DNA of 64,000 bases from Pocillopora damicornis (Eukaryota). Below, piece by piece: positions 6,001-27,000 of the stretch. Within the stretch, counting starts at the first letter, position 1, and every line of letters begins with the position of its first letter. The position numbers were made by a program. The DNA lies in assembly GCF_003704095.1 (NCBI RefSeq), contig NW_020846214.1, positions 1 through 64,000 on the forward strand, written 5' to 3'.

Positions 6001-9000
6001 ATTTTTTATTTGATTTGAGCAATTTGTATTTGATGTTACAGTTGTGGGCCACCGTAGTAAATTACTTGCCACTTCAAAAATGTTGGGAACATGAACTCAC
6101 CGCAAATAATACTGGGACATCTTAGTTAGTACTCAAGACCCTTTCGGCTTCTTTTGTTGTACCTGTGCCCGTTCGTAATAATCTTTGCCTGTCACTATTA
6201 CGCTGTACCTGTCCCTATTACGTTGTGCCTGTTCCTAATGAGCTGTGCCTGTTCCTAATGCGCTGTGCCTGTTCTTTATAAGCTGCGCCTGTTCCTAATA
6301 CGCTGTGCCAGTTTCTAGTAAGCCCTACCTGTTCCTACTACGGTGCCTAACTTTCGTTGTGCCTGTTCCTATTAGGAATTGGATTTTGGAAAATGAATGG
6401 CGAAGGGAGTACAGGACAAAATGCGCGGGAATGTCTTGCTGACCAAAGGAATCGCGGGCTCTATGAAAGTGCGCATACAACCTTTTTTGTTTCTTATTTG
6501 CAACATTCACTTATTTATTTGCAGCGTCCATTATTTTGGGAGAGTCTGAGTATCCCGTATATCCCATTAATTTTAGGCCAAAATATCCCGTATCCCAATA
6601 ATTCTTGTGGTTCGTACCCTTATAACGCCAGTTACCATGATGACGTCATTGAGCGTGACATGTTTAGGTATCCGACAACTAAAATACATTTTCCTGGGGC
6701 GTTTCATATTTCAAATAGAAATTACACGCAAATAAGACATCATGCTAATCAATGGTATGCTCTTATGTAATATTCTGTAAAGAATTGCTATGAGACTGAG
6801 GTGACTTAAAAGCAATGAGTAACCGGGAAAGTGGCGCAAAATGGAAAAAGCCGTGGGGGAGGGGGAAAGTTCATCTTGGACAAGAGCCGATATTGGCACC
6901 TATTGTCAATATTGACAATATTTGACGGCAAAAAGTAAAAAATCGCATTTGAAAGTATTTTTTCACTATTTACGCCTTCCACATTGACTAATATTGAGTA
7001 CTTGCCAGTACTGACTTGCTGTACTGGCAAGGTAAATTCTATATCCATTAAAATCTTAGTTGATATTTATGGTTAGTGATACTCCGTGAATGAAAAATAA
7101 TGTATGTGCTGCATACAAATATATGTACAACTTATAGAATTAGGTAAACATAAAATTAGAATCAAAGCGAATATTTTTACTGATTACTCAAGACCCTACA
7201 TACAGATATGATGTAGTGTAACATGCCAGATTTTTTCAACTGCCCTACTGACATCTTGTCTACCTACAGCTACAATAGGTGCAATAGATGTATCAGTGGC
7301 AACAATGGCAGAGGAAGAACGCTTATCGACAGGAGAAGTTTACACAATTGAATTTGTGCCATCTTATGACTTACCTGATGCACGGCCAAACTGTATTGAT
7401 CTTTTTCTTTAGCCACTTATTAGTAATATTGAGAAAGGATATATTGAGGTACCAATTTAGATGTGGACATTTTAGCTACTCGTCACTGTAGGAATAGACA
7501 AGACTATGCTTTTTATAACTTGTCAATATTATTATCTCAGTTGCTTTCAACTACTAAGTTAAGATGCTATGCTGACACAACAAAAATAAATCGTTCAACA
7601 GTTTCAGACACAACATGCTTAGGGTCAGTGATATCAGCAACATTGACCAAGCTGTTGAGTAACATGTATCCTTCTTAAAGTAAATCCAGTCTAAACTTAA
7701 CACTTATTCATTTGTTTTGTTTTTAGGATATTAAGTGAGCGCTATGCAGGATCACTTCCAAATTTTCCACCTGCCAATATCTCAATTCGGCATATTATAC
7801 TGTTTTGGACAGGAGACCATCCTGCATAGTGTTGGGTGTGCAAGACGAAAGGTACTGGAGCCAGAAAAGGATGTCGAAGGTGTCATATATGTGGGTAGGT
7901 GGTGGAAGTTAAAAACAGTGCAAGTTCTGATACCCATTCTTTTCAGTCTACACGTGTTTACTACATAATGTATTCTCTCAATTACATAGAGTATTGAAAG
8001 CATTTGTCTGTAAACTAGGAATAATGCATTATCTCCTGGTTATTCCATGTAGGTACACGGCTGAGTGAACGCAATCACAGCTACTACCCAACCTTCAAGA
8101 AGCAATACAGATACACTTATCAAAAGAAGTTGCTCAAGGAAGAATTGCCGACAATGAAGGCTTTAGAAGAGGAAGAAAGACCTATTTCCGAAGAATAAGC
8201 AAGGAAATTCTCTGCTGGGGTTATCAGTTCTTTATAGGCCTTATCCCCTTTATGGATATGATTTTCTCAGGGACTCCGTCTTTGATGCTATACGTCAGTA
8301 TAAGATTTCTATTCCCAGTTTTTCTCGGTCATATCATACCGAGCTTATTTCATTAGCAGACTGAAACCCACGTGGGGGAGCCAACATATTTGCTTTATCA
8401 AGCTCGGTTGATACTAAGATATTTAGTTATTAAAGGACAACTCAAACGTCGGCTGCCACACTCATTCTCTCCCCAGTGTATAATAGTACTTTGATCAAGT
8501 AACACGATTGTACCAGCTTATTACACAGTTGATCAACGAATAAAGACAGAATGTAGAAAGTAATTAAATAAAGAAAATTCTTTCTGGAGCAAAATGTTTT
8601 TAGTGAAGTCTGCGCCTTTGAATTCTCTGAACGGAACGATTCCATCCCATCTAAAGCCCTAAAACGCTTAAAAAGGTATAAGGAACAGTATTGAGAAACA
8701 AAAGATACAAACATGTTTGTGGTTGGCTAAAAATATTTTTATTAGTAATCACAAATGTTTGAGAAGAATTGATGCGCACAAGCGAGCATTATAACCAACC
8801 AGATGAATATCGAGGTTACAAATTAAACATTCGTTTTCCACAATGTTCCCTTTTAAACGAAGGTTTCTTTGCTTTTTGTGATTAAAACTTCATTTCTGAG
8901 TCTTTCTGCAAAGAGTTGCTCGTCACTCGCATCATAAGGTACATCCCACACTTGGAGATCATCTGCGTCCTGTGCAAAACACAGAGGTGGCTTAAGCACC

Positions 9001-24000: not shown

Positions 24001-27000
24001 TGACACCAGAATAAGCAAATACGTAGCTCGTAAATTACAGTTAAGACGATGAAAGGGCTCACCTAAACCAACGGAAACATGTTCCTCCACCACTCTGCCC
24101 TTTGCAGTCCACAGTTTAGACGGGAGCAACGATAAGATACACCCAATGCAGTTTGCAGACTTCTGATAGAAAACGCGGGTGAGAGCGCTGACTAACTTTG
24201 TTCACTTTTCCCATGGGGCCGGACCAGTCAAAACGTGTTGATTGTACCCGCTGACTCAACAATAGAACAAATTAGATGAGGGTGTCACCTTGCGACTGTA
24301 TTGTGAAATGTTACCAATGATAATTGCAAATAAAATCTACACCTCATTTTTTGTAGAAGTTTCTCAACGTTTTTACAGCATCGTCGGTACTAACCGTGTG
24401 ACAAGAGTTGCGAAAAAAGCATACGTTATAACGCGTACAATTCTTTGTTTATAGAAAACAATGGCAAAGACAATAGCGTACTATTGGGAATCTGCGTAAT
24501 TTTGCGTTGGGTGTGTGTTTGTGTGAGCCTTTTTTTCTGAATCTCTTTTTTAAATGTAGTCAAAATCTCAGTTTTTAAATTCAGTTCAAAGTTTTAACCG
24601 TCGAAGCTATCAAAATGTTATATTCTGTCGAAGAATGTGTTTTCTTGTTCCTTTTTTTGTCGCAACAGTTTTTTTCTTTTTTTCTTTGTCACGCGCAGTA
24701 CTTTGACTATAATGACTACCGTAGTAATCCTTCAACAAAGGAGAAAAACATTTTTTTCCACAGCCTTAGTTAGTTTATGGACTAGCTGTATTGTTTCGTA
24801 GGCTCGCGCGAGGCGACTTGTTTAAAAGAAACCTATGACACCCCACCTGTAAAGGGAACTACAATGAAATGGTGTATCCAAACGTTGTACGAGTTAAAAC
24901 TGGGACTGAATAGCACCTCTATTCCTTGGCCCACCCTTCAGCCCTCTCTTCCACGCTTCTTTCTTTTACTTTAGAGAAAGACATTTGATATAAAACTAGT
25001 TTCTAACTTCTACAACGTGTTAGATTCCCACTGCATTCAGACTTTCTTTATTCCTTTTTCCTATACCGAGGACTTAATGTGGACTGAACACAACTGGACT
25101 GAATGCTGTATTAGAACTTCCGTTTTGATGAAGCGAAGCGTCCAAACTAATGTGCTTAATGAAAAGAAAAGCAGAAAGGGAAAAAATGGAACGCGTAGTC
25201 CAGAACCTTGTTGTACAAAGTTACTGACTGTTTTTTTTTTCTGCAAGAGACGAATGGTTTTTCTTAATAGAATGAGGCATGAGAACTTGTAAATTAAAGG
25301 AAACTTGACACAAGAGAAACGATTTGGAAGATATGAAATCTAAACGCATATCTTTCCTAGTTAATGAGCGAGAAGAAAAACTTGACAAGTTCTTACCCGC
25401 CATATTCTAAAATTACATACCACGTTGATTTTCAAATGCGCGAGCCATAGCTCGCGCACGCCGTGTTTGTAGCATCACAATGATAACTCTACATACGTAG
25501 ACAAGTTCAGTTGAGAACACTGTGTAAACTGCGCGTCCAAGATCCTTCGGAGATTTTAGTCACAAAGTTACCAGTTGGAAATGGGCATTTCACAATTTTT
25601 CAGACGTTTGAACTGCTTTGCTTCTGCTCAAAGAAACCAAAAGTCGAAGTAAGAATCATTTCGCGGACCTATTGAGTGCTCTTGTCTTACAACTTTATTT
25701 CTGTTGTTTTAACTCAATCGATTCTCTCTTGTCGCCCACAGGAGACAAATGGAAAAAGAACTCTCAAGCATGCAAGAGTTGATCAGAATACTTGAACAAG
25801 ATATCCAGATCACAAGGTGATGAAAACAGTAGAACTTTTATATTATTTGGGGATCTCGCAGTAACATTTGAAGGAAGTGAATAATTGACATTCGGAGTGA
25901 AGGATCCTCGCAATGTCCCTGTCACATTTAATTGTGCGCACAGTTTGGATATGAAATTAAGTTTTGCGTGCAAGTCGCCGAAGAGTTGGTTGTTTAAAAG
26001 TTCATTCAGTTGAGATAATAAACTTTAAATTTCTGTTTCTAAACAGGAATACTGTTGAGTTGTTCAAGCAGCGACAAAAAGTAGTGGAGGAGAAAGAAAA
26101 GATGAGAAGAGACACCAGATACAATCTGATGGCTCAAGTCGAGGAGATTGAGAGTGAACTGGGACAAGCATTGGAAGAGCGCAAGGAGCTGATGTCACTT
26201 ATTATGTAAGTAGGACTTTAAAAAAAATGCAAGTAGGACTTAGGTGTATTTAACTCTGAAAATGTAACGAGTGAATGAATGGATGGAGCGACAGGATGAG
26301 ATGAGACGGAATGGGAAAGTCAGGGTCGAAGTAATTCTAAGAAACCCCTTAGTCATACTGACAACAAGCGTTAATACATTACTTTTTCTCTCCACAGTGA
26401 GTGCGGAATTCGAAAAACAGCCCTGGAAAAAGATGTTCAAGCGATGGAAAAGAAGGCGGAGTTTTTCTGGGAAGATCTGTATGATCCATTTCCAGTTTCC
26501 AAAACGAGCGCCAAAACATGGCAGGAGAATCTGCGTCCTGTGCGTTCAACGAGCGACCTGAACAAGGCGGTGCTTAAGCCACCCCTGTGTTTTGCACAGG
26601 ACGCAGATGATCTCCAAGTGTGGGATGTACCTTATGATGCGAGTGACGACGAACTCTTTGCAGAAAGACTCAGAAATGAAGTTTTAATCACAAAAAGCAA
26701 AGAAACCTTCGTTTAAAAGGAAACATTATGAAAAGCGAATCTGTTGAAGTTGTAAATGAAGCTTTTAAATTTGACAATGTCCTTTGGACATTTCTTTCGG
26801 TTGGCCTGTACATTTGAGATAAAGCATCACCCTTATTGAAAGGAAAATAAACTGATTTCAAAAGCAAATGTGTTTATGACGTGTATAATTGTGTCCCATG
26901 TTTTGGGTAATGACACGGAGCTCAATCAGGTCGCAGCTTGAAAAGGTATGAAAATCTAACTTGATTTCCAGTAAATTCAGTTACAAAGGACCCTTGCGGC

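What the first reader, a model, noticed from the sequence alone, without database searches (positions are those of the whole stretch)
8853..26716. Intact inverted pair of orphan genes encoding a candidate lipid-anchored coiled-coil adaptor with a PDZ-ligand tail
Seen: two 4-exon genes in divergent orientation about 15.6 kb apart, with identical exon sizes (68/75/159/319), canonical splice sites and 206-aa open frames. Their introns have diverged in length and sequence, and the surrounding TEs are decayed, which argues that both are under selection. Both keep Gly2 and Cys12 in an amphipathic/basic N-terminus, a ~100-aa heptad-rich helix, acidic Tyr motifs (WEDLYDP, WDVPYDA) and the C-terminus KETFV*. 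Established: Gly2 plus a nearby Cys is the usual myristoylation/palmitoylation arrangement, and E-T-x-V-COOH is the class I PDZ-binding consensus. Inference: a lineage-specific membrane-tethered (hetero)dimeric scaffold linking PDZ and possibly SH2 proteins. I do not recognise the family. Position 6 is not Ser/Thr, so myristoylation is uncertain.
[Added by the scan's program, not by the reader: the finding's places include an assembly gap (unread letters, written N; its length is only estimated) at 12917 to 13016, 14285 to 14384, 19102 to 19201, 22281 to 22380. Whether the letters on both sides are continuous or in frame is not known: test that first.]
Basis: partly seen in the sequence, partly recalled or inferred. 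Interest (0 to 1): 0.75.

Follow-up and report, generated by a model that had tools for sequence, protein, structure and literature searches.

The report
Coral-only coiled-coil gene pair
Two intact copies of a small stony-coral gene encode a long helical protein with a floppy, motif-rich tail; the genes are real and under selection, but nobody knows what they do.

Summary
Both four-exon genes exist at the stated coordinates, with exons of 68/75/159/319 nt, GT..AG introns and 206 codons. No assembly gap touches either gene. Four gaps lie between them, so the 15.6 kb spacing and the inverted orientation rest on scaffolding alone.

Gene B equals, letter for letter, the public Pocillopora damicornis model pdam_00017654. 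The copies differ at 30 of 206 residues, with dN/dS 0.28 (Fisher p 9e-6). Exons hold no indels; introns are 66-72% identical.

They are not orphans.

AlphaFold gives one helix (residues 3-128) and a low-confidence tail. Gly2 and Cys12 are kept in 4 of 4 N-termini, but position 6 fails the published myristoylation motif in 4 of 4. A T-x-V/L end occurs in 11 of 24 relatives and is absent from the Acropora type. The Tyr motifs are not conserved.

Most likely this is a coral-restricted dimeric scaffold. Membrane anchoring and PDZ binding remain inference.

The parts
8853..9940 (-). Gene A, whole coding span (ATG to TAA): 4 exons, 206 codons
   Evidence: Its 181 C-terminal residues match the P. meandrina protein P0002 at 179 of 181.
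9873..9940 (-). Gene A exon 1 (68 nt): N-terminus with Gly2 and Cys12
   Evidence: GT donor. In-frame stop upstream of the ATG.
9704..9778 (-). Gene A exon 2 (75 nt)
9344..9502 (-). Gene A exon 3 (159 nt)
8853..9171 (-). Gene A exon 4 (319 nt including TAA): end of the helix, conserved box, acidic W tail and the end KETFV
9941..10068 (-). Gene A upstream block shared with gene B (80.5% identical): presumed 5'UTR or core promoter, with a TACGTA palindrome at 10022-10027
8738..8743 (-). The only AATAAA within 400 nt after gene A's stop (110 nt downstream)
   Evidence: Weak evidence: about 0.8 such hexamers are expected by chance in 400 nt.
25581..26716 (+). Gene B, whole coding span: 4 exons, 206 codons. 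Equals the public protein pdam_00017654.
25581..25648 (+). Gene B exon 1 (68 nt)
25742..25816 (+). Gene B exon 2 (75 nt)
26047..26205 (+). Gene B exon 3 (159 nt)
26398..26716 (+). Gene B exon 4 (319 nt including TAA)
25453..25580 (+). Gene B upstream block shared with gene A (TACGTA at 25494-25499)
26846..26851 (+). The only AATAAA within 400 nt after gene B's stop (130 nt downstream)
10069..25452 (.). Spacer between the genes. It holds four 100-N scaffold gaps, decayed retroelement pieces (RT-like 11527-12151, zinc knuckle 14842-15066), a ~1.4 kb tandem duplication (14948-17671) and repeats abutting gaps. It is not part of either gene.

Best explanation
These are two paralogous, expressed-type genes of a small protein family found so far only in stony corals (Scleractinia). 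The window is most likely Pocillopora damicornis.

Each protein has three parts:
- a short, basic, amphipathic N-terminal segment with conserved Gly2 and Cys12;
- one uninterrupted helix of about 125 residues that most likely pairs into a coiled-coil dimer;
- a flexible tail of about 80 residues carrying short conserved docking motifs.

The tail motifs are an F-W at the end of the helix, the box W-x-E-N-L-R-x-x-R-S-x-x-D-x-x-K-A-V-x-x-P-P-L, an acidic stretch ending in hydrophobic-W-acidic, and, in the Pocillopora/Oculina type, a free T-[FY]-[VL] carboxyl end.

The most likely mode of action is a non-enzymatic dimeric scaffold. The helix sets valency and spacing, and the tail recruits partners through linear motifs.

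Shown: gene structure, selection, family membership, helix prediction and motif conservation.

Inferred, with my probabilities:
- coiled-coil dimer, 0.8;
- membrane association through the amphipathic helix, with or without S-acylation of Cys12, 0.4;
- N-myristoylation, 0.1;
- PDZ-domain binding by the carboxyl end in the Pocillopora type, 0.4;
- phosphotyrosine/SH2 docking, 0.05.
For: Gene reality:
- The frames are open exon by exon and the splice sites are canonical.
- Gene B equals the public model pdam_00017654. Passages of PMC6208414 say those models were built with MAKER using RNA-seq evidence.
- The Oculina model P0020 breaks at the same exon borders in tblastn.

Selection:
- Sd 25.5 over 125.8 synonymous sites and Nd 31.5 over 492.2 non-synonymous sites give dN/dS 0.28; Fisher p 8.7e-6.
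- Exons are 79-98% identical with 0 gap columns. Introns are 66-72% identical with 106 gap columns.

Family:
- The exon-4 search gave 18 hits at E<=1e-3 and 9 at E<=1e-10.
- Profile searches gave 20 and 22 hits. The only named ones are from P. damicornis, P. meandrina, Stylophora pistillata, Oculina patagonica and Acropora muricata.
- Box columns in 24 rows: L146, R147 and P162 are 24 of 24; W142, S151 and V159 are 23 of 24; F124, W125, D154, K157, P163 and L164 are 22 of 24.
- The box occurs twice in tandem in P0009, P0023 and P0026.

Helix:
- AlphaFold gives a helix at 3-128 with pLDDT above 90 for most of it.
- In P0001, a/d heptad positions are hydrophobic in 21 of 29, and 0.1% of shuffles reach the observed heptad power.

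Tail: pLDDT is below 50 at 159-183 and 202-206. Exon 4 folded alone gives pTM 0.29.

N-terminus:
- Gly2 and Cys12 are present in 4 of 4 models that have this exon.
- 8 of the first 12 residues are identical between P0001 and Acropora P0029, against 30% overall.
- The hydrophobic moment is 0.61-0.64, with 0 acidic and 4-6 basic residues in the first 22.

Carboxyl end: 11 of 24 rows end in [ST]-x-[VLI]. The class I rule S/T-X-hydrophobic is from passages of PMC2891790.
Against: - No transcript data were seen. Supplements are closed, and no paper holds the locus names.
- Position 6 fails the NMT motif in 4 of 4. Positions 3 or 5 also fail in 3 of 4 (motif). That paper reports that Phe or Val at position 6 left a G-alpha N-terminal reporter largely cytosolic and nuclear.
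- The carboxyl-end motif is missing in 13 of 24 rows. These include the whole Acropora type (7 rows ending [KE]QD[NS]), Stylophora (ends in A) and two rows ending EPFF.
- In P0015 and P0017 the same tail unit also occurs internally, in repeats. The motif therefore may not need a free carboxylate.
- Heptad periodicity is weak in three relatives: 6.8-16% of shuffles reach the observed value.
- The AlphaFold model is a monomer. A lone long helix says nothing about the oligomeric state.
- No partner, location or expression pattern is known.
Confidence: 0.55

Rival explanations
1. The N-terminus is a mitochondrial (or other organelle) targeting presequence rather than a membrane anchor. The protein would then be an organellar coiled-coil protein, and the carboxyl end would have nothing to do with PDZ domains.
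For: The first 22 residues hold 0 acidic and 4-6 basic residues and form an amphipathic helix in 4 of 4 N-termini. The NMT motif is not met.
Against: Presequences are usually conserved in character, not in letters. Here 8 of the first 12 residues are identical between Pocillopora and Acropora, against 30% overall, including Gly2, Asn11 and Cys12. AlphaFold runs the N-terminal helix straight into the coiled coil. No targeting predictor was on hand, so this was not scored.
Confidence: 0.15
2. It is a soluble cytoskeletal, centrosomal or ciliary coiled-coil protein with no membrane link. Gly2 and Cys12 would serve helix capping or partner binding, and the tail motifs would bind motor or adaptor proteins. 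The acidic W motifs resemble, from my recall only, cargo motifs read by kinesin light chains.
For: A hydrophobic-W-acidic motif is kept in 15 of the 17 rows that have this column. 'NWEE' units repeat in P0015 and P0020. The weak PDB and Pfam neighbours are kinetochore, keratin, vimentin and Nup88 coiled coils.
Against: All those neighbours have E above 0.03 and are generic coiled-coil noise. The Acropora type lacks the W motif. The likeness to motor-cargo motifs is recalled, not tested.
Confidence: 0.2
3. The 'pair' is an assembly artefact. The two copies would be alleles or haplotigs of one locus, or tandem copies wrongly flipped by scaffolding.
For: Four scaffold gaps separate the genes. Inverted and direct repeats abut the gaps at 19102 and 22281. 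The assembly is a HiRise scaffold with contig N50 of 25.9 kb (passages).
Against: The copies are too different for alleles: dS 0.24, introns 66-72% identical, 30 of 206 residues different. P. meandrina has a protein matching A at 179 of 181 but B at only 158 of 181, and an unnamed cluster (P0025) is 98% identical to B. Both types therefore persist as separate genes. Only orientation and spacing remain open.
Confidence: 0.25
4. The genes are not host genes but remnants or passengers of a transposable element, or non-functional pseudogenes.
For: The duplicated unit is short (about 1.3 kb, gene plus 128 bp upstream and about 40 bp downstream). It lies among decayed mobile-element pieces.
Against: No Pfam family reaches its cut-off for any exon or for P0001. 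dN/dS is 0.28 with no indels in 621 nt. Single-copy-like relatives exist in five coral species. Only two copies occur in 64 kb.
Confidence: 0.03

Closest known systems
Public uncharacterised coral proteins: pdam_00017654 (P. damicornis), an unnamed product of P. meandrina, AWC38_SpisGene20115 (Stylophora pistillata), LOC144649886 (Oculina patagonica), and uncharacterized protein isoform X1 (Acropora muricata)
   Same: These are true homologues. Gene B is identical to pdam_00017654. Gene A matches the P. meandrina protein at 179 of 181. The Oculina protein is 59-61% identical and the Acropora protein 30-33%, with the same N-terminus, helix and box.
   Different: None has a name, a domain or a paper. 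The P. meandrina and Stylophora models start at the Met of exon 2 and so lack the Gly2/Cys12 exon. The Acropora type ends in KQDN instead of T-x-V/L.
Dually lipidated N-termini of the G-alpha o/i type (myristoyl-Gly2 plus a palmitoyl-Cys close by)
   Same: Both have Gly right after Met1 and a conserved Cys near the N-terminus.
   Different: The NMT motif quoted in PMC9018777 (passages) is not met: position 6 is L or F in 4 of 4. The Cys is at position 12, inside a predicted helix, not at positions 3-5.
Class I PDZ ligands (S/T-X-hydrophobic-COOH; PMC2891790, passages)
   Same: Both genes end in T-F-V. The tail is predicted to be disordered. Divergent relatives stop at the same point with T-[FY]-[VL]. 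The residue at -1 is aromatic (F in 8 and Y in 5 of 21 rows). The same review says some PDZ domains (Erbin, Dishevelled) prefer Trp at -1.
   Different: The motif is not universal in the family (11 of 24). It is internal in two repeat-bearing relatives. No binding data exist.
Generic coiled-coil proteins (keratin, vimentin, kinetochore subunits, designed coils)
   Same: Both have a long heptad-patterned helix.
   Different: The only sequence matches have E of 0.03 or worse. Foldseek gives 0 matches at E<=0.001. There is no homology.

Membership tests
Scleractinian uncharacterised family (pdam_00017654 / LOC144649886 type) | Significant sequence match across exon 4, including the W..NLR..RS..D..KAV..PPL box | tested here: met
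   One search gave 9 hits at E<=1e-10. Searches gave profile hits down to E 1e-71. Box columns are kept in 22-24 of 24 rows, and both window genes carry the box.
Scleractinian uncharacterised family (pdam_00017654 / LOC144649886 type) | Same architecture: N-terminal M-G...C segment, long helix, box, tail | tested here: met
   P0020 and P0029 align end to end with P0001. tblastn of P0020 breaks at the same exon borders.
N-myristoylated proteins (NMT substrates) | Gly at position 2 | tested here: met
   4 of 4 N-termini
N-myristoylated proteins (NMT substrates) | A/C/G/S/T at position 6, and permitted residues at positions 3 and 5 (motif quoted in PMC9018777) | tested here: not met
   Position 6 is L, F, F, F, so 0 of 4 pass. 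Position 5 is R in 3 of 4, and position 3 is F in Acropora.
N-myristoylated proteins (NMT substrates) | Myristate found on the native protein | not testable with these tools
   This needs mass spectrometry of the native N-terminus.
S-acylated amphipathic N-terminal helices | Conserved Cys within a basic amphipathic helix | tested here: met
   Cys12 is present in 4 of 4. The hydrophobic moment is 0.61-0.64 and is reached by 1.3-9.8% of shuffles. The helix starts at residue 3. Acylation itself is not testable here.
Class I PDZ ligands | S/T at -2 and a hydrophobic residue at the free carboxyl end | tested here: met
   Both genes end in T-F-V followed by a stop.
Class I PDZ ligands | Motif kept in orthologues | tested here: inconclusive
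   11 of 24 rows keep it. 7 of 24 end in [KE]QD[NS], Stylophora ends in T-F-A, and two rows end in P-F-F.
Class I PDZ ligands | Binding to a PDZ domain | not testable with these tools
   No multimer prediction or binding data were available.
SH2-docking phosphotyrosine motifs | Tyr conserved in the family | tested here: not met
   Tyr129 is kept in 7 of 24 rows and Tyr180 in 6 of 24.
Coiled coil | Long helix with heptad hydrophobic pattern | tested here: met
   Helix 3-128. In P0001, a/d positions are hydrophobic in 21 of 29 and 0.1% of shuffles reach the heptad power. The pattern is weaker in three relatives (6.8-16%).
Any Pfam family or transposon protein | Score above the curated cut-off | tested here: not met
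   8 exon peptides and P0001 were scanned. The best score was 15.1 bits against a cut-off of 22.1.
Mitochondrial presequence | Acid-free, basic, amphipathic N-terminus | tested here: inconclusive
   The composition fits. No predictor was on hand, and the letter-level conservation is unusual for a presequence.

The most novel reading that the evidence does not exclude
The family defines a new, coral-restricted docking module. The ~25-residue W..NLR..RS..D..KAV..PPL box, with its preceding F-W helix end, is duplicable (it occurs twice in tandem in three relatives) and sits on a membrane-proximal dimeric stalk. Through a class I PDZ-type end with an aromatic residue at -1, the Pocillopora/Oculina branch would couple this module to polarity or junction scaffolds. 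In Pocillopora the two paralogues would be kept alike at their 3' ends by gene conversion between inverted copies. This would be a lineage-specific wiring element of coral epithelia.
Probability: 0.15. Interest if true: 0.55.

Novelty: new variant of a known kind. Interest (0 to 1): 0.3.

Why it matters
Stony corals carry several hundred gene families with no orthologues outside the group: 278 'coral-specific' core families in PMC6208414 (passages). Almost none of them is understood.

This family is small, well conserved at a few motifs, and easy to follow. If its box and its carboxyl end prove to be docking sites, it would give a handle on coral-specific cell organisation.

As it stands it is an ordinary find: a lineage-restricted coiled-coil gene, already in public databases as a hypothetical protein, with a recent duplicate.

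Tried and rejected
- Pfam on eight exon peptides and on P0001: nothing reached a cut-off.
- PDB by sequence, with a single protein and with a profile: best E 0.035 and 0.031, all generic or designed coiled coils.
- Foldseek against PDB: 2 matches at E<=10 and 0 at E<=0.001. A lone helix is a poor query.
- ESM Atlas: best 0.85 for the whole protein and 0.76 for residues 118-206, both under the 0.9 lead level.
- AlphaFold of exon 4 alone: no compact fold (mean pLDDT 60.0, pTM 0.29).
- P0012, a 3701-aa hit at E 1.2e-9, is a bacterial Ig-like surface protein by Pfam. 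I treated it as a summed chance match and dropped it from the alignments.
- P0018 and P0017 were left out of A3. P0034-P0041 are ORFs that run from exon 3 into the intron and were not used.
- In A3 the N-terminal columns also hold P0006. Its N-terminus is unrelated, so I count it as not having the exon.
- Myristoylation was rejected on the NMT motif. SH2 docking was rejected on conservation.
- Haplotig and transposon-passenger readings were rejected on divergence and copy number.
- Four paper searches for the locus names and for the topic found 0 papers or only the genome paper.
- PMC7048800 passages did not give the position-6 rule.
- I searched the splice models exon by exon and left out the step of joining the exons for a search. 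Whole-length searches used the public record P0001 instead.

Full report
**What is there**

Reading the window and checking by script confirms two genes with the same build. Gene A is on the minus strand, with exons 9940..9873, 9778..9704, 9502..9344 and 9171..8853. Gene B is on the plus strand, with exons 25581..25648, 25742..25816, 26047..26205 and 26398..26716. Both have exons of 68/75/159/319 nt, and all six introns are GT..AG.

I translated each exon in its own phase. All eight pieces are open. The three split codons read K, R and I in both genes, which gives 206 codons and TAA. Each ATG is preceded by an in-frame stop. Each gene has a single AATAAA within 400 nt after its stop, at +110 and +130. 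That is weak evidence, because about 0.8 are expected by chance.

**Gaps first**

The window has ten N runs. The four named in the finding lie at 12917-13016, 14285-14384, 19102-19201 and 22281-22380, all between the genes. No exon or intron touches a gap, so frame continuity is not in question.

What does depend on the gaps is the arrangement. Gene A lies in the stretch 5570-12916 and gene B in 22381-64000, with four joins of unknown length between them. Two of these joins are flanked by repeats. One pair is 19445-19701 inverted against 18843-19101 (92%). The other is 22630-23319 direct against 18145-18841 (90%).

Passages of PMC6208414 say the P. damicornis assembly is a HiRise scaffold with a contig N50 of 25.9 kb. 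'Head to head, 15.6 kb apart' is therefore the assembled state, not a shown fact. I filled no gap.

**More than chance, and under selection**

Self-comparison finds only this one pair for the gene region: 8816-10068 against 26755-25453, 77.2% over 1325 columns. tblastn with ten family proteins hits only these two places, apart from one E 0.61 scrap.

Identity by feature:

| Feature | Identity |
|---|---|
| Exon 1 | 79.4% |
| Exon 2 | 89.3% |
| Exon 3 | 88.7% |
| Exon 4 | 90.4% (first 135 nt), 97.8% (last 184 nt) |
| Introns, over aligned columns | 71.7%, 70.0%, 65.7% |

Exons have 0 gap columns, and introns have 3, 71 and 32.

Over 206 codons there are 30 amino-acid differences, with Sd 25.5 over 125.8 sites and Nd 31.5 over 492.2 sites. 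This gives dS 0.24, dN 0.067 and a ratio of 0.28, with Fisher p 8.7e-6. The decayed transposons nearby say little either way.

**Identity of the genes**

I searched exon by exon and left out the step of joining the exons for a search. Exon 4 of gene A found one longer protein, P0001, 'hypothetical protein pdam_00017654 [Pocillopora damicornis]', 206 aa. Its sequence equals gene B's four-exon model letter for letter. According to passages of PMC6208414, those models came from MAKER with RNA-seq evidence.

**Not orphans**

A full scan of 1.84 billion representatives with exon 4 of gene A gave 18 hits at E<=1e-3 and 9 at E<=1e-10. Profile searches with alignments A2 and A3 gave 20 and 22 hits. 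All the named ones are stony corals:

| Protein | Species | Length | Notes |
|---|---|---|---|
| P0002 | P. meandrina | 181 aa | |
| P0021 | Stylophora pistillata | 181 aa | |
| P0020 | Oculina patagonica | 207 aa | 59-61% identical |
| P0029 | Acropora muricata | 184 aa | 30-33% identical |

All are 'uncharacterized'. Most unnamed hits are short ORFs that begin at a Met inside the exon-4 equivalent, or run from exon 3 into the intron. They look like bacterial-style ORF calls on coral DNA.

P0002 matches gene A at 179 of 181 and gene B at 158 of 181. Stylophora matches B at 159 and A at 150. The duplication is therefore older than the split of the two Pocillopora species. At the 23 A/B-differing sites that Stylophora covers, it agrees with B 16 times and with A 7 times, so copy A has changed more.

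**What is conserved (24 rows of A3)**

- F124 and W125 (22 of 24 each) close the long helix.
- The box follows. W142, S151 and V159 are each kept in 23 rows. L146, R147 and P162 are kept in all 24. D154, K157, P163 and L164 are each kept in 22. E144 is kept in 21 and R150 in 18.
It occurs twice in tandem in P0009, P0023 and P0026, which shows that it is a unit.
- After it comes an acidic stretch ending in hydrophobic-W (15 of the 17 rows that have the column).
The SH2 idea therefore has no support from conservation.

**Shape**

AlphaFold on A3 gives one helix from residue 3 to 128, with block pLDDT of 92-98 over residues 11-120. Short low-confidence helices follow at 136-145, 152-157 and 184-203. 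pLDDT is below 50 at 159-183 and 202-206. Exon 4 alone gives no compact fold (mean pLDDT 60.0, pTM 0.29).

Heptad periodicity is clear in P0001: a/d positions are hydrophobic in 21 of 29, and 0.1% of shuffles reach the observed power. It is weaker in P0020, P0029 and P0005, where 6.8%, 11.5% and 16% of shuffles reach it. A coiled-coil dimer is the natural reading but is inferred.

No known family matches:
- Pfam: nothing above a cut-off.
- PDB by sequence: best E 0.035 and 0.031.
- Foldseek: 0 matches at E<=0.001.
- ESM Atlas: 0.85 and 0.76.

**The N-terminus**

Four models hold exon 1: gene A, gene B (P0001), Oculina and Acropora. All four have Gly2 and Cys12. Eight of the first 12 residues are identical between P0001 and the Acropora protein, which is only 30% identical overall. 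The segment is amphipathic (moment 0.61-0.64, reached by 1.3-9.8% of shuffles) and has no acidic and 4-6 basic residues in its first 22. It is clearly functional.

It does not fit the NMT recognition motif quoted in PMC9018777 (passages). That motif needs A/C/G/S/T at position 6. Here position 6 is L, F, F and F. Position 5 is a barred Arg in three of the four, and position 3 is a barred Phe in Acropora. The same paper reports that Phe or Val at position 6 left a G-alpha N-terminal reporter largely cytosolic and nuclear. I therefore rate myristoylation as unlikely.

Membrane binding through the amphipathic helix, perhaps helped by acylation of Cys12, remains possible. An organelle presequence is a fair rival.

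**The carboxyl end**

Both genes end in T-F-V, which fits the class I rule S/T-X-hydrophobic (PMC2891790, passages). Among 24 rows, 11 end in [ST]-x-[VLI]: ETFV 3, ETFL 2, ATYL 3, ATYV 1, QTYL 1 and VTQV 1. Quite divergent proteins stop at the same point, which argues that the free end matters.

Against this:
- 7 rows, the Acropora type, end in [KE]QD[NS].
- Stylophora ends in T-F-A.
- Two rows end in P-F-F.
- In P0015 and P0017 the same unit also occurs internally, in repeats.

The PDZ reading is thus a reasonable hypothesis for one branch, not a family trait.

**Likely working**

The protein is most likely a small non-enzymatic dimeric scaffold. The helix sets valency. The N-terminal segment may hold it at a membrane. 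The flexible tail recruits partners through the box, the acidic W motif and, in Pocillopora, the carboxyl end. Which partners is unknown.

The likeness of the acidic W motifs to cargo motifs read by kinesin light chains is from my recall and was not tested.

**Other readings**

The rival readings are an organelle presequence, a soluble cytoskeletal coiled coil, a scaffold misjoin, and a transposon passenger. They are weighed in the Rival explanations section.

**Novelty**

The genes are already public as hypothetical proteins. I found no paper with their names and none on the topic. Supplements, where such identifiers usually sit, were closed. This is a new family of a familiar kind, a coiled-coil scaffold with linear motifs, restricted so far to stony corals. 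Interest is modest.

Noticed in passing
window 8853-9036 and 26533-26716 (last 184 nt of exon 4 in both genes): The 3' end of the coding region is far more alike than the rest: 97.8% against 87.9% (4 of 184 against 53 of 437 differences, Fisher p 2.5e-5). Synonymous sites follow the same pattern (dS 0.05 against 0.26-0.60, Fisher p 0.002). This suggests gene conversion between the copies or a nucleotide-level constraint.
   Followed up: partly
window 18145-19701 and 22630-23319: Repeats abut two scaffold gaps. One pair is 19445-19701 inverted against 18843-19101 (92%). The other is 22630-23319 direct against 18145-18841 (90%). The pattern is typical of uncertain joins or collapsed haplotypes.
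   Followed up: no
window 14948-17671: A tandem duplication of about 1.4 kb with ~82% identity between the copies (14948-16345 and 16345-17671). A zinc-knuckle ORF lies at 14842-15066.
   Followed up: no
window 2824-4176 and 11527-12151: Decayed mobile-element pieces. They include a partial PiggyBac-type transposase ORF (2824-3174) and a helicase C-terminal ORF (3523-4176). A reverse-transcriptase-like ORF (11527-11838) scores just under Pfam's cut-off (29.4 against 29.6 bits), and its tail sits in another frame (11873-12151).
   Followed up: partly
window 27315-27524, 34112-34314, 40198-40390, 44839-45056: A dispersed repeat of about 200 bp in four direct copies, 70-75% identical. It looks like a short non-autonomous element.
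   Followed up: no
window 30817-63389: Ordinary host genes lie downstream. They include a TMEM188-like exon (30817-31086, -) and an F-box/LRR protein with a 578-aa open stretch (35565-37298, -) plus more LRR (34855-35307). A proteasome assembly chaperone 4 exon (37444-37851, +) lies head to head with the F-box/LRR gene. Further on come ankyrin exons (47086-47310, 63105-63389), TPR pieces, a ubiquitin-conjugating enzyme domain (55451-56350, +) and PX-domain exons (59122-60336, -).
   Followed up: no
window 10022-10027 and 25494-25499: The shared upstream block (80.5% over 128 bp) holds a near-perfectly conserved stretch of about 50 nt around a TACGTA palindrome, roughly 85 nt before each ATG. 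It is a candidate promoter or 5'UTR element.
   Followed up: no
relatives P0024, P0012, P0018 (not in the window): P0024 reads on past the family's end, with W where gene B's downstream sequence has stops. It looks like an ORF called under another genetic code (inference). P0012 is a 3701-aa bacterial Ig-like protein that reached E 1.2e-9 through six weak stretches and is probably a chance match. P0018 repeats a unit containing W-D-V-P-Y-D-A four times.
   Followed up: partly
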